A stretch of 38,019 nucleotides of DNA from an uncultured virus (IMG/VR IMGVR_UViG_2061766007_000422) (IMGVR_UViG_2061766007_000422), one strand, 5' to 3'; counted from the stretch's first letter, positions 1 through 9,771 are shown. The notes: generated by a model not told the origin, from the letters alone. Program-made: numbers and translations.

Positions 1-37
1 TATAACGTTTTCCCGCGATTAGTTCAATTTTCTTCAT
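1..37 (-). CDS. 5' end of a gene running off the window (MKKIELIAGKRY...)
   Basis: ATG at 37 preceded by GAAAGGGGAG RBS and the promoter at 62-90. Confidence 0.7.
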   Translation of the reverse strand, partial: MKKIELIAGKRY

Positions 38-61
38 TCTTATCTCCCCTTTCATAGATTT

Positions 62-90
62 ATTATATCATAAAATTTAGAAAAAGTCAA
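62..90 (-). promoter_or_regulatory. sigma-A/sigma-70-type promoter
   Basis: TTGACT-N17-TATAAT with extended -10 TG; one of 11 similar copies. Confidence 0.85.
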
Positions 91-92
91 AT

Positions 93-121
93 AAAAAAAA
101 TAGCGGCAAAACCGCTATTTT
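93..121 (-). terminator. intrinsic terminator ending the tRNA transcript
   Basis: AATAGCGG/CCGCTATT hairpin followed by a T-run on the minus strand. Confidence 0.75.
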
Positions 122-126
122 AAACT

Positions 127-202
127 AGACCAGTTATGGAATTGAACCATTTCATTTTTTATAGCAAAAAAAATCCTAACCATAAAATTGCTGTGCTGGC
201 CT
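127..202 (-). ncRNA. stem-ACAGCAA short RNA with a T-loop hairpin (Y-RNA/tRNA-mimic candidate)
   Basis: AGGCCAG/CTGGTCT terminal stem, ACAGCAA after the 5' strand, ATGG-TTCAATT-CCAT T-arm-like hairpin. Confidence 0.55.
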
Positions 203-229
203 TAAATTATTATTATAAAAGGATATACT

Positions 230-286
230 CGACCCATTTAAATTTTCCTAAATAGCAAAGAATAAAAATAATGGCTGTGTGGGTCG
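230..286 (-). ncRNA. stem-ACAGC short RNA
   Basis: CGACCCA/TGGGTCG stem, ACAGCCA, internal TTGCTA; starts 3 nt after tRNA-Gln. Confidence 0.5.
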
Positions 287-289
287 AAA

Positions 290-361
290 CAGCGGTTGTT
301 GGGGTCGAACCAACTTAACACGGGTCAAAGCCGTGTGCCCGAACCGTTAGGCGAAACCGCT
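290..361 (-). tRNA. tRNA-Gln(TTG)
   Basis: AGCGGTT/AACCGCT acceptor, CACGG-CTTTGAC-CCGTG anticodon arm, GTTGG-TTCGACC-CCAAC T-arm; CCA not encoded. Confidence 0.92.
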
Positions 362-944
362 AAATATAATGCCATGTAAAGCCAAAAGCTGTTTTTACTA
401 TATTTCGTGCGGCTTTAGAAATAGAACTCATTATACCTTTAACGATTGTTGAGCTAGAATAATTATTTTCAATAATCCATCTTGCTGCTTCTCCTTGACT
501 ACCAAAGGTTTTTATCAATGTATCATTTTTATAGCAACTTATTGGTTTACCTTGAGTTTCATAAGCAATGCTTTCAGACGATTTAATTGGTATTTTAGCA
601 TTATGAAGAATATGGCATACAGAATCACGACAAGCTCCTGTTATACGTGCAGTTTCTTTAATATTATGAACTTGTTCATATGTAGCAATAATTAAATCAT
701 AATCTAAATAAGGCTTTCCATCACCACCTATAGTGGCATTATAGCCATATTTGAAACTTCGATAAAATTCAATCCAATAAGTTTCTCTATCACATAACAG
801 TGAAGTATCTTGTACTTCTTCTACTTGTTCAATATGAAAGTGTTCAATTCCATATTTATTCATTGCACGATAAAGAGGTCTACTTTTTGTATGTAATTTT
901 TGATAATCTTGTTTATGTTCTCTCCATCGTTCTTCTATAGTTAA
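360..944 (-). CDS. GIY-YIG homing endonuclease (5' end lost in the N gap)
   Basis: Frame extends upstream of 863 (LTIEERWREHK...LYRAMNKYG); RE.YWI, GYN.T.GG motifs; NUMOD1-like C-terminus (TAFGFTW). Confidence 0.85.
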   Translation of the reverse strand, partial: LTIEERWREHKQDYQKLHTKSRPLYRAMNKYGIEHFHIEQVEEVQDTSLLCDRETYWIEFYRSFKYGYNATIGGDGKPYLDYDLIIATYEQVHNIKETARITGACRDSVCHILHNAKIPIKSSESIAYETQGKPISCYKNDTLIKTFGSQGEAARWIIENNYSSSTIVKGIMSSISKAARNIVKTAFGFTWHYI

Positions 945-954
945 NNNNNNNNNN

Positions 955-991
955 CTTCTCGCAGTTTGCGTAGCCAGTCAAGTATGCTCAT
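955..991 (-). CDS. 5' end of a small gene truncated by the N gap (MSILDWLRKLRE...)
   Basis: GGAGG RBS just upstream of ATG at 991. Confidence 0.5.
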
Positions 992-1067
992 ATGTCCTCC
1001 TGTTCAATGCGTTGGATTGCGTTGCAAGTTAGTTGCAAGTAGGTTGCAACTTAAAGTGCCTTTAAGT

Positions 1068-1216
1068 TGTCTGCGGGTGAGGATTTGCACCTCACATGAT
1101 AGCCTTTTCGCCGATGTAGGGTCGCATGACTTTCGTCCTTCTTTTCGGGTGGTAACGTTACCTCCACCCTCGTGACTATCTCCCTCTAACCCGTCTACCT
1201 ATTCCGTCACCGCATA
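1068..1216 (-). ncRNA. tRNA-like RNA with the anticodon/variable region replaced by a ~90-nt structured domain
   Basis: Leu-type D arm GACGGAATAGGTAGACG, T arm GTGAGG-TGCAAAT-CCTCAC, TGCGG/CCGCA acceptor-like stem, insert closed by GATAGTC/GGCTATC. Confidence 0.7.
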
Positions 1217-1219
1217 AAA

Positions 1220-1343
1220 TATCTAGCCGGAGTATTACTATTGCACCTGCGCGCGCCAGAGTTGCACTGGCAGCACTAGCTGACTCGAACAACACCGCAT
1301 AATACTATTCTACTCCTTTTCTGTGTTTGCACCCGTCTAGATA
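1220..1343 (-). ncRNA. structured RNA with two T-arm-like hairpins
   Basis: TATCTAG/CTAGATA and AGTATTA/TAATACT stems enclose GTTG-TTCGAGT-CAGC and GCCAG-TGCAACT-CTGGC. Confidence 0.6.
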
Positions 1344-1345
1344 AT

Positions 1346-1439
1346 TGGTTTGGAGTGCCTTTACCATCATTTTTGCAATATCTGTTTCACTACTAATGCC
1401 GTAGCACGTGATACTAACATTTGAGCTTAATGGCTCCAA
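1346..1439 (-). ncRNA. CCA-ended non-cloverleaf RNA
   Basis: TTGGAG/CTCCAA stem followed by ACCA; inner stem GCCATTA/TGATGGT; begins 1 nt after tRNA-Lys. Confidence 0.5.
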
Positions 1440-1440
1440 G

Positions 1441-1512
1441 TGCGCCTGGCGAGGATCGAACTCGCGTTCATAGATTAAAAGTCATGTGCTCTACCGACTG
1501 AGCTACGGGCAC
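1441..1512 (-). tRNA. tRNA-Lys(TTT) with an irregular anticodon stem
   Basis: D arm GCTCAGTCGGTAGAGC, loop CTTTTAA, T arm GCGAG-TTCGATC-CTCGC; stem CATGA/TC(T)ATG needs a bulge. Confidence 0.85.
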
Positions 1513-1516
1513 AAAA

Positions 1517-1601
1517 CGGAAGATGAAGGAGTCGAACCTTCGAGCCCTCTCGGGCCGACGCGTTAGCAGTGCGTTGCCTTAAGCCACTCGGCCAATCTTC
1601 C
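1517..1601 (-). tRNA. tRNA-Ser(GCT)
   Basis: GGAAGAT/ATCTTCC acceptor, loop CTGCTAA, long variable arm GGCCC-GAGA-GGGCT, T loop TTCGACT. Confidence 0.95.
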
Positions 1602-1607
1602 ATAAAC

Positions 1608-1663
1608 GCGGCAGTAAAAATAAGAATTTACAGTCCTTGTAATATTATTGCTATTTCTGCCGC
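1608..1663 (-). ncRNA. stem-ATAGCAA short RNA carrying a Tyr(GTA)-like anticodon hairpin
   Basis: GCGGCAG/CTGCCGC stem, ATAGCAA, AAGGA-CTGTAAA-TTCTT hairpin, no D or T arm. Confidence 0.55.
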
Positions 1664-1670
1664 AAATAAG

Positions 1671-1708
1671 TCTCCTAGTGGTGCGCATTATGAAGAGGCG
1701 TAAGGAGA
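1671..1708. other. compact stem-loop between GIY-YIG gene and tRNA array
   Basis: TCTCCT/AGGAGA outer stem with inner CGC/GCG hairpin; GC-rich island in AT-rich context. Confidence 0.4.
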
Positions 1709-1718
1709 ACGTAATTAT

Positions 1719-2648
1719 TTATACTATATATTTCCAATGAAGTTTTTCTTTAGTTTCTGGATGTTTTCCTGCAGATTTATAGCTACCTCTACCGGCTAAA
1801 TAATCCTTAATAGGGCTGCTACTTTTTAAACCACACCAATTTGCTGCTTCACGCACGGAAGGAAAAATTTGTTGTGTTTCAATACATTGAACCATTTTTC
1901 CTAAATGCTGGGGAACTGCTGGCAATTTATCCAATTTTTCTTTTGACCACTGGTAGCCATATGCTAAATTTTGATTATTATCTTTATGTAATGCACGACT
2001 AATATTGGTTTCACAGCCAGCATAAGTCTTTCCAATAGCTCTACAAGCACTAGTGATAGAAGGATAAGAAGCAATATATTTGCCATCTATTGAATATTGG
2101 TGAATTTCAATAACATCTGAAAAATATATTTTTTGATTTTCAGAAAAATTATATTTTTCGCCAACTTTTATTTTTCCTTGTTTTATTGCACGAATAGCGC
2201 CGCGAGAATGGCTTGTTGTGGCATTATAATCATGATAACCTTTTAAACGATATTGTACGAGTGTATGACCGCATCCAACGATTTCTGTAATTTCTTTTAC
2301 ACTATAACCATCATCCCATAGTTGTCTTATTAAAATTGGGTCAAAAATCCAACTATTTTCACCTTGTCCGCCTTTGGTAGAATTATATCCATTATTAAAA
2401 GAATCATAATAATTTATCCAATAACGTTCTTTAGCGTCTAATACACTTGAGTCTAAATTACATTCTTCAATTACTTCAAAGATAAAATTATCAATTCCGT
2501 CTTCTTCCATCGCAGGATATAATTTTCCATTTTTTCTTTTATTTTTAGCCTCATAAATATGTTGTATCCAACGATTTTTTATATCAATACTTTGACCAAT
2601 ATAAACTTTATTATTTAAAATATTTGTAATTTTATAAATACCAATCAT
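1719..2648 (-). CDS. GIY-YIG homing endonuclease with HTH/NUMOD-like C-terminal repeats
   Basis: GIYKITN..VYIGQS..RW..H, ERYWI, GYNST.GG; ATG 2648 preferred to GTG 2657 on RBS spacing. Confidence 0.92.
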   Translation of the reverse strand: MIGIYKITNILNNKVYIGQSIDIKNRWIQHIYEAKNKRKNGKLYPAMEEDGIDNFIFEVIEECNLDSSVLDAKERYWINYYDSFNNGYNSTKGGQGENSWIFDPILIRQLWDDGYSVKEITEIVGCGHTLVQYRLKGYHDYNATTSHSRGAIRAIKQGKIKVGEKYNFSENQKIYFSDVIEIHQYSIDGKYIASYPSITSACRAIGKTYAGCETNISRALHKDNNQNLAYGYQWSKEKLDKLPAVPQHLGKMVQCIETQQIFPSVREAANWCGLKSSSPIKDYLAGRGSYKSAGKHPETKEKLHWKYIV

Positions 2649-2654
2649 AATTTT

Positions 2655-2730
2655 CACCCCATTAAAAATTATTGGCTGAGTGATGGGGCACTCTTATCCC
2701 GTATAGGCGGCCAAACCTTCCGTTTCCCAA
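2655..2730 (-). promoter_or_regulatory. structured leader with an anti-SD loop upstream of GIY-YIG gene
   Basis: GAGTG-CCCCAT-CACTC hairpin whose loop is complementary to the RBS ATGGGG; homologous to 6473-6555. Confidence 0.6.
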
Positions 2731-2738
2731 AATATAAG

Positions 2739-2855
2739 TGCTACCGAGTAGATTCGAACTACCACTGCGTAGATTTTAAAAACCAGTGTAAGTGATGACC
2801 TTACTTCGCTCTGGCTACCGGTTGTCTACTGCCTCTGCCGTTGGGCTACGGTAGC
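2739..2855 (-). tRNA. tRNA-Leu(TAA) interrupted by a 44-nt insertion (2780-2823) in the anticodon loop
   Basis: GCTACCG/CGGTAGC acceptor, D arm GCCCAACGGCAGAGGC, T arm GGTAG-TTCGAAT-CTACT; removing the insert gives GTAGA-CTTAAAA-TCTAC. Confidence 0.85.
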
Positions 2856-2866
2856 ATTTTTTATAT

Positions 2867-3082
2867 TTATATTCTATCTTCGTAATCTTCCCCAAACACT
2901 TCTTCTATGCTTTTTTCCGAATATCCAAGTGCTCGCGCGAAAATCTTACACATACGCTGAAGATTACCAATAGTAGATTTATCTTCTGCTACATGAAAAT
3001 TTATATCAACATCATTAGCAAATTCATTGGTATCATTCCAATACTGAAATTCAAAATGTTCGTTACGTTCAATTTCTTTCAT
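2867..3082 (-). CDS. hypothetical protein
   Basis: ORF in operon, GAGG RBS before ATG 3082. Confidence 0.7.
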   Translation of the reverse strand: MKEIERNEHFEFQYWNDTNEFANDVDINFHVAEDKSTIGNLQRMCKIFARALGYSEKSIEEVFGEDYEDRI

Positions 3083-3086
3083 TATT

Positions 3087-3302
3087 TTAATCCTCTTCAT
3101 CTATTAAACTATCCAAAATTTTTTCACAGAGTGGCATAGTAGCAGGAAAAGTAAAAATACAAATGAAAATAAGCCACCATCGCTGGAAAATTAGCATCAA
3201 TACGGCTGGAACAGTAAAAGTAATTATACCAATCAATACTGTTAAATATAGAATTTTCATCATTTCTTTAAAATTTTTCCAATATTGTTTCATTTTTACC
3301 AT
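3087..3302 (-). CDS. small membrane protein (two hydrophobic segments)
   Basis: Hydrophobic stretches ILYLTVLIGII... and WWLIFICIFTF; overlaps the upstream stop. Confidence 0.7.
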   Translation of the reverse strand: MVKMKQYWKNFKEMMKILYLTVLIGIITFTVPAVLMLIFQRWWLIFICIFTFPATMPLCEKILDSLIDEED

Positions 3303-3481
3303 TCCCTTGCTTCTTTAACAACACAAATCATTTTACAATCAGGACACTGAATAAAAGGAGTTGGAGCAACAAAAAAGGTCATAGTTTTTATATCATCTGT
3401 GGTAAAACGAAATCTACAACCACATTCGGGGCAAGTCTTTTCATATACTTGAAAATTTCCATGCTTTATAACCGTAATCAT
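3296..3481 (-). CDS. zinc-ribbon protein
   Basis: CPECGC...CPDC; first gene after the promoter at 3512-3540. Confidence 0.8.
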   Translation of the reverse strand: MITVIKHGNFQVYEKTCPECGCRFRFTTDDIKTMTFFVAPTPFIQCPDCKMICVVKEAREW

Positions 3482-3511
3482 TTTATTACTTCCTTTCCCT
3501 TTACTATAACT

Positions 3512-3540
3512 ATTATACCATAAATTTTGAAAAAAGTCAA
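3512..3540 (-). promoter_or_regulatory. sigma-A-type promoter
   Basis: TTGACT-N17-TATAAT with TG. Confidence 0.85.
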
Positions 3541-3572
3541 TTAATAAAAATCACTTTAACCATATTTCTCTT

Positions 3573-3722
3573 CTATTTTCCTCTCCAACTATTAAACCAA
3601 GGTTGCCACATAGGACCAGGCTTAGTATCTTCTTCAATTATTTTGTGTATTAAATGTAATAGCCATACTGTAATACAACTTCCTACTCCTAATATCCATA
3701 TCAATATTATGCCTTTTGCCAT
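3573..3722 (-). CDS. 49-aa single-pass membrane protein (not in ORF track)
   Basis: MAKGIILIWILGVGSCITVWLLHLIHKIIEEDTKPGPMWQPWFNSWRGK; GGAGG RBS. Confidence 0.6.
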   Translation of the reverse strand: MAKGIILIWILGVGSCITVWLLHLIHKIIEEDTKPGPMWQPWFNSWRGK

Positions 3723-4150
3723 TCTTCTACCTCCACATTATGCGCCCGCAACCAATCTTGAACCGGCCATCTCTCAGAGCAAGGATTGTCATATTTTTCA
3801 AAAAATATAAACGCAAAATCAAAATCTTCTATTTTAGGAAAGTCGGCGCATAAACGAGCGCGCAAATCAAGTAAATGCTCCATAAATTCATTAAAATCAA
3901 TGGCATCTAATTGCTTGCGATACTCGTGTAAAAATGCGCAGTCTTTAGGATGTTTAGGCTGACATTTACCGTTACAAAGACCATCACAATTCACGCCTGG
4001 GCGCAAAGGCGGACATCTTAAACTAATAACACCATTATTGTCAATTCCGCCAACATTATACCATTTTGGTTCCCAAACTACTGTTGAAAGCGCAACAAGA
4101 TTTTTAGGAAAATTGCGCACCTGTCCCCAATAACTAGTATATAATTTCAT
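3707..4150 (-). CDS. DUF488-like protein
   Basis: N-terminal YTSYW and C-terminal F.EK..NPCSER..V.DWL resemble phage DUF488-type proteins (recalled pattern). Confidence 0.55.
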   Translation of the reverse strand: MKLYTSYWGQVRNFPKNLVALSTVVWEPKWYNVGGIDNNGVISLRCPPLRPGVNCDGLCNGKCQPKHPKDCAFLHEYRKQLDAIDFNEFMEHLLDLRARLCADFPKIEDFDFAFIFFEKYDNPCSERWPVQDWLRAHNVEVEEWQKA

Positions 4151-4244
4151 TCCTCTTGTAAATCCTCATCAAACATCCAACTATCTTTACTATCTTCGCG
4201 CGCTTGTTCTATTTCGGCCCGTAGTTCTTCATCACTTGTATCTT
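4147..4244 (-). CDS. 3' fragment homologous to the end of 4268-4528
   Basis: ...EELRAEIEQAREDSKDSWMFDEDLQEE vs EEIKAEILKVREDCKDSWVFD; cut by N gap. Confidence 0.6.
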
Positions 4245-4267
4245 NNNNNNNNNNTTGACCCCAATAA

Positions 4268-4528
4268 CTAGTGTATAATTTCATTCTCATCCTTCCACTG
4301 ATGCCAATATTCCACATCAAACACCCAACTGTCTTTACAATCTTCGCGCACTTTTAGAATTTCTGCTTTTATTTCTTCTGGAGTTTTTTGCCCAAGTATA
4401 GCATAAAAATCATCTAATAATTTACTTAACTCTACACTGCTCAAGGGCTCATACTTTCCAAATACAATTGGTTTTATTGGTTTATCTAAACCTTCATGCA
4501 TTTTTACTTCTGAAATATCAAGAGACAT
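4268..4528 (-). CDS. hypothetical protein
   Basis: ATG 4528 after AAGGGG RBS. Confidence 0.7.
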   Translation of the reverse strand: MSLDISEVKMHEGLDKPIKPIVFGKYEPLSSVELSKLLDDFYAILGQKTPEEIKAEILKVREDCKDSWVFDVEYWHQWKDENEIIH

Positions 4529-4529
4529 A

Positions 4530-4754
4530 CTACCCCTTCTTCGCAATAAACTTCATTTCAATTGTAGTACCTTCTGGAATAGTATAATTCTGAAAATAAT
4601 TTGTAGGTAAATGACACATAATACTCGCGCCTTCCTTAACAAAGCACTTCTGATATTCTTCATTTCCATTTTCTTTAAGAGTGCGCATAAGCCATTTATA
4701 AATAGATTCTATAAATTCTGTTTTTGTTGTGGTTGAATCCAATTTTTTAGTCAT
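4530..4754 (-). CDS. hypothetical protein
   Basis: AAGGAG RBS, first gene after the promoter at 4786-4814. Confidence 0.75.
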   Translation of the reverse strand: MTKKLDSTTTKTEFIESIYKWLMRTLKENGNEEYQKCFVKEGASIMCHLPTNYFQNYTIPEGTTIEMKFIAKKG

Positions 4755-4785
4755 TATAATTTTCTCCTTTACTCTTTCTAAAATA

Positions 4786-4814
4786 ATTATACAATAATTT
4801 TAGAAAAAAGTCAA
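4786..4814 (-). promoter_or_regulatory. sigma-A-type promoter
   Basis: TTGACT-N17-TATAAT. Confidence 0.8.
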
Positions 4815-4824
4815 ATAAAAAAAC

Positions 4825-4883
4825 TAGACGGGTTTAATAAAATAACAAATTTCGTTTAAAACAAAAATTGCTGCACCCGTCTA
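4825..4883 (-). ncRNA. stem-GCAGCAA short RNA (may also terminate transcription)
   Basis: TAGACGGGT/ACCCGTCTA stem, GCAGCAA, AT-rich interior, followed by a T-run. Confidence 0.55.
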
Positions 4884-4894
4884 ATAAGATAATT

Positions 4895-4947
4895 ATCACG
4901 GCATAACCTAGGATACAGTGCCCAATATAAGGCGCTGTTGCCGCGAT
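4895..4947 (-). ncRNA. structured element in tRNA-Pro trailer
   Basis: ATCGCGGCA/TGCCGTGAT stem enclosing ACAGCGCC..GGCACTGT hairpin. Confidence 0.4.
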
Positions 4948-4989
4948 TTTCTCACACATCCGCAATATTCGTAGCCTTGCGGCGGCTAG

Positions 4990-5062
4990 TCGAGATGGCA
5001 GGCTTTGCTCCTGCGACAAACGCTCCCAAAGCGCACATGTTACTGAACTACACTACATCTCG
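4990..5062 (-). tRNA. tRNA-Pro(TGG) with atypical T loop
   Basis: CGAGATG/CATCTCG acceptor, loop TTTGGGA, GCAGG-AGCAAAG-CCTGC T arm. Confidence 0.88.
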
Positions 5063-5077
5063 ATAAAATGGCCGTGA

Positions 5078-5608
5078 TTACGGCCATTCTTCTGATAATT
5101 CAGAAAAAACTGGGTCTTCTATATTAGTGCAATAATATAGATTAGGACGTTCACCAAATACATCCAGTGCAATATCCTGATATAAAGTAGAACGATTACC
5201 AAAGTAATCACTCAAATTATCGGTATAATACTGCACAACTTGTTTATTGAAGACAACATAAGTAATACCATCAAGTAACATTACACCATGAATGGTCTTG
5301 GCAAAAGCAAAAGCGCCATTGCCATTAAAGGCGGCTTCATAAAGATCATCAATAGGCGTATCATCATCAATAGTGGCTTCCTCACCATTCGCGGGAACAA
5401 CCTGTATCTTAAGCTTAATGTTACCAAATTCATACTCTTCGGGGAGCAGAATAGTTAGCGCAGCGGCCTTGTCATCATCATCTACGTAAAGCTTAACTTC
5501 ATAGTTATCTTCATCAAAGATGACGTGAACCTCTGGGTCATACTTGAAAAGTGCGGCAATCTGTGAATAACGAATACACCAACCAGGGCTTAGTTTTAGT
5601 CTTGCCAT
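5078..5608 (-). CDS. hypothetical acidic phage protein
   Basis: 176-aa ORF, AAGGAG RBS. Confidence 0.8.
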   Translation of the reverse strand: MARLKLSPGWCIRYSQIAALFKYDPEVHVIFDEDNYEVKLYVDDDDKAAALTILLPEEYEFGNIKLKIQVVPANGEEATIDDDTPIDDLYEAAFNGNGAFAFAKTIHGVMLLDGITYVVFNKQVVQYYTDNLSDYFGNRSTLYQDIALDVFGERPNLYYCTNIEDPVFSELSEEWP

Positions 5609-5611
5609 ATT

Positions 5612-6466
5612 TTATATCTCCTTATCAATAAATTTCCAACCAAATCCTTTTGATGTTTTTAATATACCACGACAAACTCTACTAAGTGTAGAAACACAAC
5701 CGTTTATTTCTCTTGCCGCAGTAGACAAAGAAGGAAAGGTTTTTATTATTTCATTTGTATTTAAATCTATTTGTGCAACTGCACGAGCGGTCATATCTCT
5801 AGTTTTATTTGGAAGTTGTACTTCCCAAAAATAATCTTTGTAAAAATTATGATGTGTTGACAAACCTTCTCGAAAAGTTGCCCTACAAACTCCTAAAGAT
5901 ATCGCTGCTTGAGCCAAAGAAGAAAATTCTTCAATTGCTTCAAACGTAATTGGGTCTCTTTTTATAATTTTTTTAGCATATGGCATATATGAACTTTTTG
6001 CATTTTCTTTGCTTCGTTCTAATTTTTCTTCTGTAGTTATACCATTAGAACTTAATACTATACCAACTGCTGATGGACTACAAGAAACTATTTCACTAAT
6101 TTGCTTAATACTGAAACCTTCTTCCCATAATTCTGCAATTTTATTATGGTCATGTAAGTTATGTCCATCTCCACCCAATGTTAAATTATAACCATTATTA
6201 TAACTGTCATAATATTCTATCCAATATCTTTCTCGTTCATCTAATTGTTCAATAGGAACTAATTCAATAATTTCATAATTAAAATTTTCATTACCATATT
6301 CTCTAATTGCTTTATAAAGAGCTGAATTATTATATTTTTTCCAATTTGGGTGTAAAGCTGCACTTTTATGTGCATACCATCTAGTATAAATATCGCAACT
6401 TTTTCCTATATAAACTTGATTATTTATTTTATTAGTAATTTTATAAATTCCGCTTAAAACTTTCAT
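5612..6466 (-). CDS. GIY-YIG homing endonuclease with NUMOD1-like repeats
   Basis: GIYKITN..VYIGKS, ERERYWI, GYNLTLGG; two F.SL..AA...WE/WK repeats. Confidence 0.92.
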   Translation of the reverse strand: MKVLSGIYKITNKINNQVYIGKSCDIYTRWYAHKSAALHPNWKKYNNSALYKAIREYGNENFNYEIIELVPIEQLDERERYWIEYYDSYNNGYNLTLGGDGHNLHDHNKIAELWEEGFSIKQISEIVSCSPSAVGIVLSSNGITTEEKLERSKENAKSSYMPYAKKIIKRDPITFEAIEEFSSLAQAAISLGVCRATFREGLSTHHNFYKDYFWEVQLPNKTRDMTARAVAQIDLNTNEIIKTFPSLSTAAREINGCVSTLSRVCRGILKTSKGFGWKFIDKEI

Positions 6467-6472
6467 TATTAT

Positions 6473-6555
6473 CAACCCCTACTTGATAATAATATAAGGC
6501 TGAATAATAGGGGTATTCTTATCTCATAAAAGAGCGACCTTTATGCTACCCTTAT
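6473..6555 (-). promoter_or_regulatory. structured leader with an anti-SD loop upstream of GIY-YIG gene
   Basis: GAATA-CCCCTAT-TATTC hairpin, loop complementary to the RBS TAGGGG; homologous to 2655-2730. Confidence 0.6.
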
Positions 6556-6570
6556 ATTATTTAAATATAA

Positions 6571-6652
6571 ATTAGACCTATTTTGACCTGCTCTACCAGC
6601 TGAGCTACTTGTGCAAGCACAAGGTTGGGTTCGAACCGGTAGATAAGCTAAT
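6571..6652 (-). ncRNA. circularly permuted tRNA module, YrlA-type Y RNA candidate
   Basis: 5'->3' order: GGTTCGAACC T loop, loop-closed acceptor stem CTTGTG-CTTG-CACAAG, D arm TAGCTCAGCTGGTAGAGC; closed by ATTAGCTTAT/ATAGGTCTAAT. Confidence 0.75.
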
Positions 6653-6787
6653 AGTGATTTTTCGCACTTCCGCGGATTTCCATGCCTGGTTATACCACCA
6701 ACCCTTCCGCTCTATGTCGGTTGTGTCCTGATACCGAAAAACATCCAGTAGACTTTATTTAATGTTGTTGCTACTGTCCTCAACAAG

Positions 6788-6859
6788 CGACTCTACCGTG
6801 AATTGAACACGGACCTCGTGATAGACAGTCACGCATCATAGCCATTAGACCATAGAGCC
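6788..6859 (-). tRNA. tRNA-Asp(GTC)
   Basis: GGCTCTA/TAGAGTC acceptor, CGTGA-CTGTCTA-TCACG, CCGTG-TTCAATT-CACGG. Confidence 0.93.
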
Positions 6860-6926
6860 AAATATTAGCTTTAAGGTCAGCTAACCGCGCATGCTCGTTT
6901 TACTTCCACATTTGCTTTCAGAAGAA

Positions 6927-6999
6927 CGCCCAGTGAGAATTACGATATCCCGACACCAACGTTAACAGCGTTGCGCTCTACCAACTGAGCTAACTGGGC
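6927..6999 (-). tRNA. tRNA-Asn(GTT) with atypical T arm
   Basis: GCCCAGT/ACTGGGC, canonical D arm, CAACG-CTGTTAA-CGTTG; T loop ATCGTAA. Confidence 0.88.
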
Positions 7000-7004
7000 A
7001 AAAA

Positions 7005-7068
7005 GTGGGCTGATTTAAAAGTTTATAGCATACACGCATCTTCTAAATCTTTTCGCTGCCGTGCCCAC
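7005..7068 (-). ncRNA. stem-GCAGCGA short RNA
   Basis: GTGGGC/GCCCAC stem, GCAGCGA, internal TGCTAT as in 127-202 and 230-286. Confidence 0.45.
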
Positions 7069-7165
7069 AACGGCCGATTTCGTTCGCGGATTATCTCGCG
7101 GGACGCCCCAAGCGTAGTCTTTTCATACTCGCTCGCGCTAGCAATTGTAATGGACGTTGCCAACA

Positions 7166-7238
7166 TAACTCCGACGGGGTATGATCCCGTGCTTGTGGCT
7201 TGAAAGGCCACCGTGTTAGCCTACTGCACTACGGAGTC
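7166..7238 (-). tRNA. tRNA-Glu(TTC) with atypical T loop
   Basis: GACTCCG/CGGAGTT, GTGGC-CTTTCAA-GCCAC, ACGGG-ATCATAC-CCCGT. Confidence 0.9.
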
Positions 7239-7242
7239 AAAA

Positions 7243-7740
7243 CGCGGTTTGATAACGCGGCCGCAACCGCGAATGCTTACCCGCTTGTCTTTTTATTCAT
7301 GTGAGCAACTAAACCGCAAGACCGGTGTCACCGGTGGATTAGCAATAATCGTGCTTTCCGCTCACTAAATTCTAACCGTGGAAACAACTCATTTCCACTT
7401 TACCGCTGATTAGAAGATACATTATTTTGCTCTTCTTTTATTACGCGCCGAGCAATCTGGATATAGTATCATAAATCCATTCAGTTTGCGCTTGTCGTAA
7501 CCCCGTGTTTTACTTGCTTTCTGCACTCGACACTGGCCAGCAACTTGGCTGGACTTCAAACTCCATTTAACCCATTCTTGCCTGTATCAAAAGATACCTT
7601 CTCGCCTGCAATTCAAACTGCCAAGAGGCTAGTTGGGCACCGCCACTATGATTTCTTATAGCCAATAAATAGCTTAATATACTATTGCGAACTTGCGGTA
7701 TATTAGCGCGACACCTTTTTATACTGGGTCTGTATCCAGT
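7243..7740 (-). ncRNA. large structured ncRNA candidate (ROOL/GOLLD-like context)
   Basis: ~500 nt between two tRNA genes, no credible ORF, many hairpins (GTGGAAAT/GTTTCCAC, ACCGG/CCGGT, CCAGC/GCTGG, CGCGGTT/AACCGCG). Confidence 0.6.
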
Positions 7741-7742
7741 AA

Positions 7743-7812
7743 ACGCGGGAGTGAGTAATGCTCTCACAAAGTCGTGCTTATGAGACACGATTGAAGACTT
7801 CTTCTTCCCGCC
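7743..7812 (-). tRNA. atypical tRNA-Met(CAT)-like gene
   Basis: GCGGGA/TCCCGC acceptor, TCGTGT-CTCATAA-GCACGA anticodon arm, GTGAG-AGCATTA-CTCAC T arm, shrunken D arm. Confidence 0.65.
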
Positions 7813-7920
7813 GTGCACCCGTCTTTGGACTATTTTTACTTGGTAGAGTTCGGTACTAGCCAATCGCCCGTAGCAGTTCATGACGCTGCCTAACAATGCG
7901 TGGCCTGCGTCCCACGCTCG

Positions 7921-7994
7921 TGCTCATTAGAGGAGTTGAACCTCTAAAATCTTGATTTTGAATCAAGCACGTTTGCCAATTACGTCAAATGAGC
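7921..7994 (-). tRNA. tRNA-Leu(CAA), short variable loop
   Basis: GCTCATT/AATGAGC, CTTGA-TTCAAAA-TCAAG, AGAGG-TTCAACT-CCTCT. Confidence 0.9.
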
Positions 7995-8009
7995 TCGTTT
8001 TCTAAAATA

Positions 8010-8038
8010 ATTATAACATAAATTTAGAGAAAAGTCAA
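8010..8038 (-). promoter_or_regulatory. sigma-A-type promoter heading the tRNA/ncRNA transcript
   Basis: TTGACT-N17-TATAAT with TG, 15 nt upstream of tRNA-Leu(CAA). Confidence 0.85.
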
Positions 8039-8042
8039 ATAA

Positions 8043-8162
8043 TTAGTTCCATTCTTTACAAGTTTCGTTTTCTTCTACAACTTTTCCCTCTTGTTCCATA
8101 CAATGAAGATTACCTTCATCATCTACAAACGAATTAGAGCAATTAAAGCAATCTTTTTTCAT
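8043..8162 (-). CDS. 39-aa four-Cys mini-protein (not in ORF track)
   Basis: MKKDCFNCSNSFVDDEGNLHCMEQEGKVVEENETCKEWN; GAGGG RBS and own promoter. Confidence 0.7.
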   Translation of the reverse strand: MKKDCFNCSNSFVDDEGNLHCMEQEGKVVEENETCKEWN

Positions 8163-8187
8163 TTTCTTTCCCTCACTTTCTATAATA

Positions 8188-8216
8188 ATTATATCATAAA
8201 TTTGAAAGAAAGTCAA
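8188..8216 (-). promoter_or_regulatory. sigma-A-type promoter
   Basis: TTGACT-N17-TATAAT with TG. Confidence 0.85.
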
Positions 8217-8218
8217 AT

Positions 8219-8276
8219 AAAAAATCCCGCAAACTTTTTATTTATTTAGCTATAAACAACCAATTTGCGGGATTTG
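8219..8276 (-). terminator. long-loop inverted repeat, probable terminator
   Basis: AAATCCCGCAAA/TTTGCGGGATTT followed by a T-run. Confidence 0.6.
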
Positions 8277-8282
8277 CCAAAA

Positions 8283-8346
8283 TGGTTCGCAACGCCACTT
8301 CAGCGCGCTCGTCTCGTGAGCTACACGACCAAGATAACTTGCGTGA
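8283..8346 (-). ncRNA. CCA-ended non-cloverleaf RNA
   Basis: CGCAA/TTGCG stem followed by AACCA; internal TCGTG-TAGCT-CACGA hairpin. Confidence 0.4.
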
Positions 8347-8546
8347 TGGCGGACGCCTATGTTCTTCGTGACCCCGAACATAGAAATGGGATAGACATCT
8401 CATGGATATGTCCGGACATACCTTACAAGTGTGAGATAGCACTTGGCATTCCTATCGTATTTAAAAAAAGAACCGCCTATAGTATTTCTTTTCCTAGCAA
8501 ACGGCAAATCTTTTTTGTGCGCCGGTAAGACTTGCAGAAACGGTGC

Positions 8547-8600
8547 GGAGGGACGCTGGATTTGCACCGGCCGACTCTATAAGTTGCTCCTTGCTCCCCC
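8547..8600 (-). ncRNA. miniature tRNA-like element (acceptor + T arm only)
   Basis: GGGGGA/TCCCTC stem, GCCGG-TGCAAAT-CCAGC T-arm-like hairpin, ~23-nt linker in place of D and anticodon arms. Confidence 0.5.
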
Positions 8601-8604
8601 ATAA

Positions 8605-8621
8605 AGGCGGCTAAGCCGCCT
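8605..8621 (-). terminator. GC-rich hairpin after 113-aa gene
   Basis: AGGCGGC-TTA-GCCGCCT followed by a short T tail. Confidence 0.5.
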
Positions 8622-8626
8622 CGGTT

Positions 8627-8968
8627 TTAGAACCAAAACTTATCAAACAAATCAAAAAGAGTTGGAATATCATCAAAATTTTTGGAGGTGTAATGATATG
8701 AGCCATAACGATTTACAAACGCTTCAATCTTTTCTTTATAAGCTTTCTGCGCTTTAATCATTTCCTGTCTAGCATTTTCAATTTCACTTGCCATCGCTTT
8801 GCGCTCTGCGACTTCTTTTTCTTTCTTTTCTTTCAGTTCCGCGGCTTTACGCTCTGCGAGAATCTTTTCACGATTTTCCTGTTCTTTAGCTTCAAATTCG
8901 GCTTTTTCGGCTTCATCTACTGAATTATAATACTTATTAGTGCGATCGCTATAAACTTTAATTGCCAT
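8627..8968 (-). CDS. coiled-coil hypothetical protein
   Basis: E/K/A-rich helical sequence, AAGGAG RBS. Confidence 0.8.
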   Translation of the reverse strand: MAIKVYSDRTNKYYNSVDEAEKAEFEAKEQENREKILAERKAAELKEKKEKEVAERKAMASEIENARQEMIKAQKAYKEKIEAFVNRYGSYHYTSKNFDDIPTLFDLFDKFWF

Positions 8969-8989
8969 ATAAAATAAATCTCCTTTTAT

Positions 8990-9640
8990 TTATTTATATT
9001 TCCATATATAACCACCAGCAGTCTTTAATTTTCCTTGGCAAGCTCGTGCTAGATTGCTGGTCGGGATAGATGTTTGACGAGAAGCTTCACTTATAGATAC
9101 ATATTCTTGTATTAACTCTTCTTGTAAATTATATTGTAATATTGGTCGAGCTTTATATTGAGCCCCTCTACGACGTCTTTCGTTGGGAGAAATATTTAAT
9201 TCATCTAAAATATTAGTTAAAGTTTGATGTGTACAATGCGTTATCTCTTTAATTTCTGTATGAGATTTACCTTCATTCCATAATGATAAGATTAAATCTC
9301 TATCATATCTTTTTTTAAAAACATTGGTTTCGCCGCCTGCTGTCATATTATACCCATTACAATTAGGTAATTGAATAAAAGTATGATAATAAGAAATCCA
9401 ATATTTTTCTCTTTCATTTAGTTTTTCTTCTGAACAATATTCTAATATATCAAAAGAAAAATTTTCTATTCCATATGTTCTAATTGCAGTATAAATTAAA
9501 CTATTATACATATCATTATTACGATTAAAAGGCTGGGTACGATGAGCCCGTAATCTTACTTTAAGATTTTTAGACTTACCAATATAGCTTTTTCCATTAC
9601 AATTATTTGTAATTTTATAAATACCAGAATTGTTTTCCAT
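8990..9640 (-). CDS. GIY-YIG homing endonuclease with NUMOD1-like C-terminus
   Basis: GIYKITN..SYIGKS, EREKYWI, GYNMTAGG, ACQGKLKTAGGYIWKY. Confidence 0.92.
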   Translation of the reverse strand: MENNSGIYKITNNCNGKSYIGKSKNLKVRLRAHRTQPFNRNNDMYNSLIYTAIRTYGIENFSFDILEYCSEEKLNEREKYWISYYHTFIQLPNCNGYNMTAGGETNVFKKRYDRDLILSLWNEGKSHTEIKEITHCTHQTLTNILDELNISPNERRRRGAQYKARPILQYNLQEELIQEYVSISEASRQTSIPTSNLARACQGKLKTAGGYIWKYK

Positions 9641-9742
9641 GATTTTTTTTAGCCTCTCATAAACATATACTCCTTTTATATTTGCGATTCCTTACTCGCA
9701 TTATATTTGTTGATTGGGTTCCTTTCCCCTTTCAACATAATA

Positions 9743-9771
9743 ATTATATCATAAATTTTATTAAAAGTCAA
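9743..9771 (-). promoter_or_regulatory. sigma-A-type promoter
   Basis: TTGACT-N17-TATAAT with TG. Confidence 0.85.

What the first reader, a model, noticed from the sequence alone, without database searches (positions are those of the whole stretch)
120..8625. RNA island: tRNAs interleaved with a dense set of tRNA mimics and other structured RNAs
Seen: most spacers between the tRNA genes hold their own folded unit (permuted tRNA, anticodon-only mimic, double-T-arm RNA, mini-tRNA, CCA-ended hairpins, pseudoknots, a ~500-nt RNA), all on one strand, and several start 1-3 nt after a discriminator base. Established: RNase P and RNase Z processing of CCA-less tRNAs releases the flanking RNA. Inference: the tRNAs punctuate a polycistron of functional ncRNAs that may act as decoys or repair substrates against host tRNA-targeting defence.
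Basis: partly seen in the sequence, partly recalled or inferred. Interest (0 to 1): 0.8.

Follow-up and report, generated by a model that had tools for sequence, protein, structure and literature searches.

The report
Phage tRNA island with structured RNAs
A rumen phage keeps its tRNA genes in a mosaic island with selfish nuclease genes and several conserved folded RNAs, some shaped like rearranged tRNAs, whose job is still unknown.

Summary
Partly confirmed. The region is a phage tRNA island: 8 tRNA genes, all on the minus strand. It holds four internal consensus promoters, so it is not one polycistron. Roughly 3 kb is non-coding. About one third of that belongs to RNA families conserved with compensatory base changes in other phage contigs and absent from Rfam 15:
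- a 76-nt hairpin-pseudoknot motif (7670-7745);
- a ~400-nt modular RNA ending at tRNA-Glu (7240-7641);
- a 67-nt motif between tRNA-Asn and tRNA-Asp (6860-6926);
- a permuted tRNA-like element with YrlA (Y RNA) architecture (6565-6646; the T stem is broken in this copy);
- a tRNA-like RNA with a ~96-nt insert (1058-1216).

Other "units" are leaders of the nuclease genes, or have no comparative or thermodynamic support (S1, S2a, S3, S6a).

The layout matches the phage T4 tRNA cluster (segB plus species I/II RNAs) and the niche of GOLLD/ROOL. Release by RNase P/Z is inferred. The decoy/repair idea is untested: no Ro60, RtcB, CCA-adding or T4 Rnl1 gene was found where searched. This scan has noted the same modular RNA family on other DNA.

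The parts
7920..7994 (-). tRNA-Leu(CAA), first gene after the consensus promoter at 8038-8010
7746..7919 (-). spacer S2a: a hairpin 4 nt after the tRNA and a cloverleaf-like fold around 7750-7826 that begins AGACGGGTGCA; no comparative support
   Evidence: read; no nhmmer hit; in two DNA runs 7671-7808 is replaced by 302 other bases
7670..7745 (-). motif A: 5-bp hairpin, A-rich joiner, H-type pseudoknot (GCG/CGC) and 7-bp hairpin with an invariant loop
   Evidence: CM R1, 86 bits; covariation counts; tRNA context
7240..7641 (-). RNA B: modular structured RNA ending at tRNA-Glu; core 7358-7494; 3' pseudoknot-like module at about 7244-7275
7165..7239 (-). tRNA-Glu(UUC)
7000..7164 (-). spacer S3, no distant homologue; close relative 92% identical
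6927..6999 (-). tRNA-Asn(GUU) with unusual T loop AUCGUAA (Rfam 50.2 bits; not called by ARAGORN)
6860..6926 (-). S4 motif: hairpin with loop AGCAAAUG, then AUG.GCGGUU and a 4-bp stem with loop GACCUUAA
6787..6859 (-). tRNA-Asp(GUC)
6565..6646 (-). permuted tRNA-like element (T arm, closed acceptor hairpin, D arm, tail GGUCUAAUUU) of YrlA-like architecture; T stem only 2 of 5 pairs and outer helix truncated in this copy
6476..6560 (-). 5' leader of HEG 2; CCCC...GGGG hairpin over the ribosome-binding site
   Evidence: read
5612..6475 (-). GIY-YIG homing endonuclease gene 2
5078..5608 (-). conserved ORF (176 aa) of unknown function, found inside tRNA islands of 9 related loci
4989..5062 (-). 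tRNA-Pro(UGG)
4821..4885 (-). long stem UUAGACGGGU...ACCCGUCUA plus U7: terminator-like, with the same 'frame' as the YrlA-like family but no tRNA-like core
   Evidence: by inspection
2867..4754 (-). eight small packed ORFs behind promoters at 4814 and 3540 (3707-4150 is 75% identical in L063)
2738..2855 (-). tRNA-like RNA with 7-bp acceptor, D and T arms and an anticodon arm enlarged by about 44-51 nt; single copy, no homologue
2658..2734 (-). 5' leader of HEG 3, conserved upstream of related HEGs in 7 loci
1719..2657 (-). GIY-YIG homing endonuclease gene 3
1671..1707 (-). abiF-motif-like hairpin, below Rfam threshold (32.7 vs 37 bits), conserved in L063/L235 and L019
1440..1602 (-). tRNA-Ser(GCU) and tRNA-Lys(UUU); the latter has a bulged U in the anticodon stem
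1217..1439 (-). spacer S6a with two adjacent T-arm-like hairpins (1255-1293) inside a stem UAUCUAG.../...CUAGAUA; no homologue
1058..1216 (-). tRNA-like RNA: class-II-type acceptor/D arm and T arm with a ~96-nt insert in place of the anticodon region
360..990 (-). GIY-YIG homing endonuclease gene 4; its 5' part is interrupted by a masked N run, so intactness cannot be judged
289..362 (-). tRNA-Gln(UUG), overlapping the stop of HEG 4
97..288 (-). spacer S8 with T-arm-like hairpin 136-150 and tail GGUCUAGUUU (122-131), then intrinsic terminator 97-121
8230..8626 (-). spacer S1 (GC 0.47), upstream of the tRNA units; no homologue, no energy signal
9683..9738 (-). cow-rumen-4 RNA motif (RF02948), just outside the claimed region, between a consensus promoter and HEG 1

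Best explanation
This is the tRNA gene island of a rumen phage of a low-GC Gram-positive host. It is organised like the phage T4 tRNA cluster. Co-oriented tRNA genes are read from strong sigma-70-type promoters, together with free-standing GIY-YIG homing-endonuclease genes, small ORFs and several structured non-coding RNAs.

The structured RNAs are separate, exchangeable modules:
- motif A;
- the S4 motif;
- a modular ~400-nt RNA (RNA B);
- YrlA-like permuted tRNA elements;
- tRNA-like RNAs with inserts.

These modules are under selection for their fold. They are not one giant RNA.

Because they lie flush against CCA-less tRNA genes, RNase P cutting at the next tRNA's 5' end and RNase Z-type cutting behind the previous discriminator base would release them as discrete stable RNAs. 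This step is inferred. The most likely role is as trans-acting stable RNAs that bind host or phage factors. The invariant loops argue for a specific partner.

The homing endonucleases explain the cassette-like mosaicism. Part of the 'folded units' are their translational leaders.
For: SHOWN
- Phage identity: tail, endolysin and HNH genes.
- 8 tRNAs and 4 GIY-YIG genes.
- Six near-identical TTGACT-17-TATAAT promoters on the minus strand.
- Motif A: 34 distinct sequences; 98.0% paired against 78.7% shuffled and 27-36% slid; 12 of 15 pairs changed on both sides. 51 of 63 contexts have a same-strand tRNA within 400 nt, and 8 abut one by 1-2 nt.
- RNA B core: 25 distinct sequences; 90.5% paired; covariation score 0.408 against 0.04-0.09 slid.
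- YrlA-like family: 23 distinct sequences; 98.5% paired; score 0.732. Its outer helix is 98.5% paired on a plain MAFFT alignment.
- S4 motif: 56 distinct copies. The free stem pairs are paired in 102 of 112 cells against 84.7 shuffled, 0 of 2000 shuffles as high. 20 of 56 have a tRNA just upstream and 16 of 56 have one downstream.
- Cassette swaps in close relatives.
- Contigs from two RNA libraries cover 7483-7740, 7369-7565 and 6649-6745.

PRECEDENT
- segB-tRNA co-localisation is widespread (PMC13096335, section 10).
- GOLLD and ROOL lie near tRNA islands in phages (PMC5737381, ROOL section; PMC12286853, passages).
Against: - No RNA ends, strand or abundance were measured. The RNA-library evidence is contigs at depth 3-6 from poly(A) libraries, and DNA carry-over is not excluded.
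- Minimum free energies are not lower than shuffles.
- The CM-made alignments lean towards the model structures.
- The collection scans were seeded with conserved words, so invariant columns (for example the GCGC/GCGC pseudoknot of RNA B) are partly ascertainment.
- The loop-linker pseudoknot of RNA B is only suggestive (104 of 2000 permutations as high).
- The window's own YrlA-like copy is degenerate.
- About two thirds of the non-coding DNA has no comparative support.
- No partner or phenotype is known.
Confidence: 0.6

Rival explanations
1. One reading: the tRNA-like and other RNAs are decoys or repair substrates that blunt host defences which cut tRNAs.
For: - At least two conserved elements keep tRNA arms: the YrlA-like element and the tRNA-like RNA with insert.
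- The phage tRNA-Lys and tRNA-Asn have atypical stems or loops.
- tRNA-cutting defences and phage tRNA countermeasures are documented (PMC13096335, abstract and section 10).
- YrlA RNAs mimic tRNA and are handled by tRNA enzymes (PMC4201824, passages).
Against: - No Ro60/TROVE in 0 of 10 related phage records, three of them at least 90% complete.
- No RtcB or CCA-adding family in 0 of 5 records, and none in 57 window ORFs.
- The best-supported modules (motif A, S4, RNA B) are not tRNA-shaped.
- The window's permuted tRNA copy has a broken T stem.
- No defence system or cleavage data are linked to it.
Confidence: 0.15
2. The modules are cis-acting parts of the tRNA precursor. They would act as spacers that keep neighbouring tRNAs from misfolding, guide RNase P/Z/E cuts, protect ends, or (the UAGAC...GUCUAGUUU frame) act as leaky terminators. 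They would have no life of their own.
For: - Flush placement against tRNAs.
- The frame at 4821-4885 is followed by U7 and a promoter.
- Leaders of the HEGs are clearly cis-acting.
- Modules are swapped as cassettes together with tRNAs.
Against: - Motif A has 26 invariant positions and long invariant loops across gut and rumen phage lineages. This is more than a spacer needs.
- In the commonest lineage motif A sits 56 nt behind tRNA-Thr with no tRNA after it within 400 nt.
- Many tRNA pairs in the same islands have only 2-5 nt between them.
Confidence: 0.15
3. The spacers are debris: decayed tRNA genes and recombination scars left by homing-endonuclease-driven gene conversion, conserved only by recent common descent.
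For: - Four HEGs in 10 kb.
- Cassette replacement in close relatives.
- A degenerate YrlA-like copy.
- A tRNA-like at 2738-2855 without any homologue.
- S1, S2a, S3 and S6a have neither homologues nor an energy signal.
Against: Compensatory double changes in 11-18 pairs per family, across phage contigs whose tail protein is only 40-53% identical. These cannot come from shared descent alone. The slid-partner controls, which keep relatedness, stay at 0.04-0.17.
Confidence: 0.07
4. Leu-to-Glu spacer (7240-7919) is one giant ornate RNA of the GOLLD/ROOL kind that self-assembles.
For: It has the same genomic niche (PMC5737381, PMC12286853). It is a 680-nt ORF-free stretch with pseudoknots.
Against: - No Rfam match to GOLLD or ROOL even at E up to 10.
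- Motif A, RNA B core and the other modules occur separately, duplicated or in other orders in relatives.
- Part of the stretch is replaced in close relatives.
Confidence: 0.03

Closest known systems
Phage T4 tRNA gene cluster with segB and the species I / II stable RNAs (PMC2330249; PMC13096335)
   Same: Eight co-oriented tRNA genes read from an upstream promoter. A free-standing GIY-YIG homing endonuclease sits inside the cluster, with a start-occluding hairpin. Extra small stable RNAs of unknown function are made from the same precursor.
   Different: Here there are four endonuclease genes, several transcription units, about 3 kb of spacer and different RNA families. No sequence relation to the T4 RNAs was tested, because T4 sequence was not used.
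GOLLD (RF-numbered in Rfam) and ROOL (RF03087) large ornate RNAs
   Same: Phage or prophage RNAs of unknown function, near tRNA islands, pseudoknot-rich. ROOL was first seen in cow rumen (PMC5737381, PMC12286853).
   Different: No covariance-model match. The RNAs here are small separable modules of 65-400 nt rather than one conserved 580-800-nt architecture.
YrlA / bacterial Y RNAs (RF02553; PMC4201824)
   Same: The element at 6565-6646 and its 22 distinct relatives have the YrlA order: long closing helix, an extra hairpin, T arm, closed acceptor-like hairpin, D arm. The YrlA model matches its positions 23-88.
   Different: Scores are 24.5-37.4 bits against a gathering score of 69. There is no Ro60 gene in 10 phage records. 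The 5' strand of the closing helix reads UAGAC plus covarying bases rather than the GNCGAA(N)G motif. The elements lie in tRNA islands, not beside rsr.

Membership tests
tRNA (RF00005) | Covariance-model score above gathering (29 bits) with cloverleaf | tested here: met
   8 matches of 45.8-65.8 bits on the minus strand; ARAGORN agrees for 7
YrlA (RF02553) | T arm, closed acceptor-like hairpin and D arm in that order inside a closing helix | tested here: met
   Family of 23 distinct sequences, 98.5% paired, 11 of 15 pairs covary. Outer helix. In the window copy the T stem keeps only 2 of 5 pairs.
YrlA (RF02553) | Rfam gathering score of 69 bits | tested here: not met
   Window 24.5 bits; L009 37.4 and L042 30.5 bits, model positions 23-88 only
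YrlA (RF02553) | Encoded next to a Ro60/TROVE gene (PMC4201824) | tested here: not met
   PF05731 found in 0 of 10 related phage records, while the control genomes rang. No TROVE among 57 window ORFs. The window's own full genome is not held.
YrlA (RF02553) | Ro60-binding helix with the GNCGAA(N0-1)G motif (PMC4201824, figure legend passage) | tested here: not met
   The 5' strand reads UUAGAC followed by bases that covary with the 3' strand; only L009 reads GACGAA
GOLLD / ROOL | Match to the Rfam covariance model | tested here: not met
   No match at gathering or at E up to 10
GOLLD / ROOL | Phage or prophage location near tRNA genes | tested here: met
T4-type tRNA cluster with seg gene | Free-standing GIY-YIG endonuclease gene inside a co-oriented tRNA cluster | tested here: met
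   PF01541 in 1719-2657, 5612-6475 and 8990-9640; PHROG homing-endonuclease families also for 360-863
T4-type tRNA cluster with seg gene | tRNAs, endonuclease mRNA and extra stable RNAs made from one precursor | not testable with these tools
   Only consensus promoters and terminators and RNA-library contigs were available; no ends or strand
abiF RNA motif (RF03085) | Gathering score of 37 bits | tested here: not met
   32.7 bits at 1671-1707
cow-rumen-4 RNA (RF02948) | Gathering score of 48.5 bits | tested here: met
   49.8 bits at 9683-9738, outside the claimed region; 67.7 bits in L042
Group I intron (considered for 991-1440 plus the nuclease gene) | Match to an Rfam intron model; interrupted host gene | tested here: not met
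   No intron match at E up to 10; flanking tRNAs are complete

The most novel reading that the evidence does not exclude
Phage tRNA islands would be production lines for a toolkit of small trans-acting RNAs cut out by the host's tRNA-processing enzymes. This window alone would carry members of at least four uncatalogued, widespread families: the motif A pseudoknot, the GACCUUAA-loop S4 motif, Ro60-less YrlA-like permuted tRNAs, and the modular RNA B. These would mimic or trap host tRNA-binding machinery such as Rsr/PNPase, tRNA-targeting defence nucleases or modification enzymes. Alternatively, in the case of motif A, the RNA would be a new self-cleaving or ligand-binding RNA.
Probability: 0.18. 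Interest if true: 0.85.

Novelty: new variant of a known kind. Interest (0 to 1): 0.6.

Why it matters
Phage tRNA clusters are usually read as codon-usage or anti-defence devices, and their spacers are ignored. In this island the spacers carry several RNA families with strong structural conservation across rumen and gut phages. None is in Rfam 15. One has the architecture of bacterial Y RNAs but no Ro60 gene nearby. If these RNAs are released and active, they are a sizeable unexplored class of phage effectors. They would also be a handle on the long-open question of what GOLLD/ROOL-type RNAs beside tRNA genes do. The motifs are short (65-150 nt) and have clear consensus, so binding, cleavage and structural tests are directly feasible.

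Tried and rejected
- **Folding energies.** Minimum-free-energy z-scores of 11 spacer pieces against dinucleotide shuffles gave -1.8 to +0.3 on the transcribed strand; coding controls ranged from -3.1 to +2.2. This gives no support either way. A first version of that script timed out.
- **Catalogued phages.** Megablast of 1-9000 against 50,697 phage records found only a 42-base promoter-like match.
- **Metagenome scan.** A scan with the ORF 8627-8968 found 9 relatives, none close.
- **Whole genome.** None is held for the window.
- **Group I intron reading of 991-1440.** No Rfam hit.
- **ARAGORN with introns allowed.** It does not call 1058-1216. It calls 2738-2855 as tRNA-Leu(UAA) with a 44-nt 'intron', which is too short for a group I intron (recalled); no splicing evidence.
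- **Second pseudoknot in the RNA B core (hairpin loop with linker).** Matched pairs averaged 4.19 against 3.85 for mismatched pairs, with 104 of 2000 permutations as high. This is only suggestive.
- **RNA B helix Pa.** Pairs in only 72.7% of cells.
- **Atlas look-up of the 176-aa island ORF.** Best score 0.84, not informative.
- **RNA-library contigs.** They cannot show ends, strand or level. Parts of the stretch without cover in runs X19 and X20 say nothing.
- **T4 Rnl1 family search.** It rang nowhere, controls included, so it is uninformative.
- **The UAGAC...GUCUAGUUU 'frame' shared by five spacers.** The word counts are only mildly above chance: 5 matches against 1.9 expected, and 7 against 3.3. 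It is kept as an observation, not a finding.
- **Literature.** Full-text searches found no description of these motifs. The supplementary tables of PMC5737381 and PMC8040213, which list hundreds to thousands of candidate motifs, were not opened and may hold some of them.

Full report
**What the region is.** The window is phage DNA. It encodes a tail protein (PHROG 5302), an endolysin with a peptidoglycan-binding domain, an HNH endonuclease, DUF285 repeat proteins and a dCMP deaminase, nearly all on the minus strand. GC content is about 35%. Sequencing runs that hold it near-identically are bovine gut metagenomes. Motif A, described below, occurs in only 6 contigs of the 185,579-species genome collection; five are from Bacillota assemblies or MAGs and one is a Helicobacter pylori contig. 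From the promoter and ribosome-binding-site style I infer a low-GC Gram-positive host.

**tRNA genes.** ARAGORN finds 7 tRNAs. Rfam finds 8 at or above its gathering score. All are on the minus strand:

| tRNA | Coordinates | Note |
|---|---|---|
| Leu(CAA) | 7920-7994 | |
| Glu(UUC) | 7165-7239 | |
| Asn(GUU) | 6927-6999 | Rfam only; T loop AUCGUAA |
| Asp(GUC) | 6787-6859 | |
| Pro(UGG) | 4989-5062 | |
| Ser(GCU) | 1516-1602 | |
| Lys(UUU) | 1440-1512 | read by ARAGORN as a 4-base anticodon; the sequence shows a 7-nt loop and a bulged U in the stem |
| Gln(UUG) | 289-362 | |

None is followed by CCA.

- Of the 8,506 bases claimed, about 4.9 kb is protein-coding.
- There are GIY-YIG homing-endonuclease genes at 360-~990, 1719-2657 and 5612-6475, and a fourth at 8990-9640 just outside the region (PF01541 and PHROG homing-endonuclease families). 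The gene at 360-~990 is interrupted by a masked N run.
- An ORF of 176 aa at 5078-5608 recurs inside the tRNA islands of 9 related loci.
- Eight packed small ORFs lie at 2867-4754, and a 40-codon Cys-rich ORF at 8043-8163.
- The 109-codon frame at 7567-7896 is not a gene. Its only 'protein' match is the 24 residues that overlie motif A.
- Six near-identical promoters (TTGACT, 17 nt, TATAAT; 11 of 12) lie on the minus strand at 9771, 8216, 8038, 4814, 3540 and 90. The same promoter word recurs dozens of times in related phage records.
- The island is therefore at least three tRNA-bearing transcription units (8038 to ~4821; 4814 onward; 3540 to the terminator at 121-97), not one polycistron.

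**Thermodynamics give nothing.** Minimum free energies of the spacers are within -1.8 to +0.3 sd of dinucleotide shuffles on the transcribed strand. The case therefore rests on comparison.

**Relatives.** The tail protein found 67 IMG/VR loci at 30-57% identity. Many carry tRNA islands in the same place; several include a CUA-anticodon tRNA. The closest islands are in L063/L235 (a 163.5-kb record, 93% complete) and L199/L234. tRNA sets differ between them and the window, but RNA modules are shared. No catalogued phage is close.

**Motif A (7670-7745).**
- A 15-base word from its loop matched 120 or more IMG/VR stretches. 74 of the 125 matches in held loci carry the rest of the motif.
- A covariance model finds one full copy in the window at 86 bits.
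- On 34 distinct sequences, 98.0% of cells pair, against 78.7% after shuffling and 27-36% with slid partners. 12 of 15 pairs show changes on both sides. The covariation score is 0.553 against 0.04-0.11.
- The fold is a 5-bp hairpin, an A-rich joiner, and a 7-bp hairpin whose 5' strand is bracketed by GCG/CGC. That H-type pseudoknot is supported by one covarying pair in three sequences; these columns were not part of the model.
- 51 of 63 distinct contexts have a same-strand tRNA within 400 nt. In 8 of them the motif ends 1-2 nt before a tRNA (Tyr, Trp, Glu or Asn). The commonest lineage has it 56 nt behind tRNA-Thr.
- No Rfam family matches it at E up to 10.

**RNA B (7240-7641).**
- nhmmer and MAFFT show a conserved RNA that ends at the first base of a tRNA in the window (Glu), L017 (Glu) and L063 (Thr). 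L234 is 85% identical over 7641-7419.
- A two-word pattern found 36 IMG/VR stretches. 19 distinct sequences, the window's included, carry the full core.
- The family is modular: a 5' element, an optional insertion, a core, alternative middle modules and a 3' module are combined differently in each phage.
- A model of the core (7358-7494) scores 124.5 bits in the window. It also finds members that the pattern had not seeded: L008, L066 and L015.
- On 25 distinct sequences, 90.5% of cells pair (71.3% shuffled, 32-49% slid). 18 of 23 pairs change on both sides. The score is 0.408 against 0.04-0.09.
- One proposed helix (Pa) is poor, at 72.7%. The GCGC/GCGC pseudoknot never varies. A loop-linker pairing is only suggestive.
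- The 3' module before the tRNA reads as a hairpin with two compensatory changes between the window (CGCGG/CCGCG) and relatives (CUCAG/CUGAG) (by inspection).

**S4 motif (6860-6926).**
- It fills the gap between tRNA-Asn and tRNA-Asp. It follows tRNA-Asn in L063 and L020 too.
- A 17-base pattern found 59 IMG/VR stretches, giving 56 distinct copies.
- The two free pairs of its 4-bp stem pair in 102 of 112 cells against 84.7 on shuffling, with 0 of 2000 shuffles as high. G-C alternates with A-U.
- Within flanks of only 160 nt, 20 of 56 have a tRNA ending at the module's start and 16 of 56 have one downstream, nearly all starting within 3 nt of its end.

**Permuted tRNA-like element (6565-6646).**
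A T-arm-like hairpin, a closed acceptor-like hairpin (UUGUGC/GCACAA) and a canonical D arm follow in that order.
- Rfam's YrlA model aligns to it at 24.5 bits (gathering 69). It aligns better to relatives: L009 at 37.4 and L042 at 30.5 bits, model positions 23-88.
- A model built from three copies found further copies. 9 copies in all pass E 1e-7, the window's and six beyond the seed included. A pattern scan added more.
- On 23 distinct sequences, 98.5% of cells pair, 11 of 15 pairs covary, and the score is 0.732 against 0.07-0.13 slid.
- tRNA-tRNA junctions score lower; an example is window 1468-1547 at 30.8 bits. This is the false positive that PMC4201824 warns of.
- In the eight relatives examined, the element is about 130-150 nt, with a closing helix UAGAC-NNN/NNN-GUCUA that is 98.5% paired on a plain MAFFT alignment, with 3 of 9 pairs covarying. 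It also has a CAGCAA hairpin ahead of the T arm. This is the YrlA layout as described in PMC4201824 (passages read).
- The window's copy is the odd one out. All three T-stem mispairs in the alignment are its own, and it lacks the extra hairpin and most of the closing helix.
- In an RNA-library contig of a close relative, 5613 is joined to 6649. That variant lacks both endonuclease gene 2 and this element.
- No TROVE/Ro60 gene was found in 10 related phage records, three of them at least 90% complete. The search rang in Deinococcus and Bacteroides controls.

**Other tRNA-like pieces.**
- 1058-1216 has a class-II-type 5' acceptor/D arm and a T arm plus 3' acceptor strand. They are separated by about 96 nt in the window and by different lengths in L031, L233 and L234.
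- Four pairs show compensatory changes among these four sequences (by inspection). In L031 and L234 it lies just before a tRNA.
- 2738-2855 has a perfect 7-bp acceptor stem, D and T arms and an anticodon arm enlarged by about 44-51 nt, but no homologue.
- T-arm-like hairpins outside tRNAs number 5 in the spacers (2747-2763, 1279-1293, 1255-1271, 1078-1094, 136-150). There are 2 more inside ORFs of the island, 4 in the remaining 28 kb of that strand, and 1 on the opposite strand of the island.

**Leaders of the nuclease genes.**
- The ~65-85 nt in front of endonuclease genes 2 and 3 (6476-6560, 2658-2734) resemble each other.
- They also resemble the regions in front of related endonuclease genes in L019, L032, L047, L013, L014, L240 and L241.
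- They contain a CCCC(AU)...(AU)GGGG hairpin over the ribosome-binding site (by inspection).
- The same device was proposed for T4 segB (PMC2330249, Discussion passage).
- cow-rumen-4 (RF02948, 49.8 bits) lies between a promoter and endonuclease gene 1.

**Unsupported spacers.** S1 (8230-8626), S2a (7746-7919), S3 (7000-7164) and S6a (1217-1439) have no hit at nhmmer E of 0.1-1 or below in 244 loci of 1.2 Mb. S5a (6647-6786) and S8 likewise have none, or only hits with E above 0.1. S5a is, however, identical in two RNA-library contigs and near-identical in a DNA run of close relatives.

**Mosaicism and expression.**
- Contigs of DNA runs from other studies show that 7671-7808 (motif A plus part of S2a) is replaced by 302 other bases in two runs.
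- In one run, 6860-7282 (S4, tRNA-Asn, S3, tRNA-Glu) is replaced by 94 bases. Modules are therefore exchanged even among close relatives.
- Contigs from two poly(A) RNA-seq libraries cover 7483-7740, 7369-7565, 6649-6745, 7106-7165 and the ORF at 5106-5584, at depth 3-6.
- That is compatible with transcription. It shows neither ends nor strand, and DNA carry-over is possible.

**Repair and partner genes.** RtcB and the PolyA_pol/CCA-adding family were found in 0 of 5 related records, with positive controls. The T4 Rnl1 family rang nowhere, controls included. None of these, nor TROVE, is among the 57 window ORFs scanned.

**Reading.**
- The anatomy matches the T4 tRNA cluster: eight tRNAs, segB and species I/II RNAs from one precursor (PMC2330249). 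It also matches the tRNA-island niche of GOLLD and ROOL, whose function is unknown (PMC5737381; PMC12286853).
- I take the conserved modules to be separate stable RNAs released by RNase P and RNase Z-type processing. This is an inference from established tRNA maturation (recalled, not tested). I take the endonucleases to drive the cassette exchange.
- The decoy/repair hypothesis remains possible for the tRNA-like members but has no positive evidence here.

**Earlier notes of this scan.** Another window (e1-5761300) shares words with 7240-7760 and was read as a 'giant modular RNA in a phage tRNA array'; part of that report later fell. My evidence agrees that the family is real and modular. It argues against treating the stretch as one giant molecule.

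Noticed in passing
window 122-131, 4821-4885, 6569-6578, 1222-1345, 7750-7826 (minus strand): Five spacers share a 'frame' like that of the YrlA-like family: 5' (U)UAGACGGGUGCA / CAGCAA and 3' GUCUAGUUU-like tail. AGACGGGTGCA occurs 3 times exactly (expected 0.27). The copy at 4821-4885 has no tRNA-like core, ends in U7 and looks like a terminator. The copy at 120-213 holds only a T-arm-like hairpin.
   Followed up: partly
window 1440-1512 and 6927-6999 (minus strand): The phage tRNA-Lys(UUU) has a bulged U in the anticodon stem. The tRNA-Asn has a T loop AUCGUAA with positions 54 and 58 apparently swapped. Both are atypical features that could matter for recognition by nucleases or modification enzymes.
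   Followed up: no
loci L008, L009, L013-L015, L019, L024, L027, L031, L032, L042, L045, L047, L066: Many related phages start their tRNA island with a tRNA bearing a CUA anticodon (called 'Pyl' by ARAGORN). This hints at amber-codon reassignment or suppression in that clade. The window itself shows long ORFs under the standard code and has no such tRNA.
   Followed up: no
window 8627-8968 (minus strand): A 113-aa Lys/Glu-rich ORF with a conserved aromatic C-terminus sits at the head of the tRNA island in 23 related loci. It has no Pfam or PHROG family.
   Followed up: partly
window 991-1057 (minus strand): The leader of endonuclease gene 4 carries three direct copies of UUGCAAC spaced 10-11 nt apart, just before the ribosome-binding site.
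   Followed up: no
window 9743-9771, 8188-8216, 8010-8038, 4786-4814, 3512-3540, 62-90 (minus strand): An extended, nearly identical promoter word (TTGACTTT...TATGATATAAT) recurs six times in 10 kb and dozens of times in related phage records. It makes spurious 'homology' hits between unrelated spacers.
   Followed up: yes
L063 14885-14927, L090 438-480, L120 438-479: In several relatives motif A is followed at once by a half copy (joiner plus second hairpin only, 31-33 bits). The window lacks this half copy.
   Followed up: no
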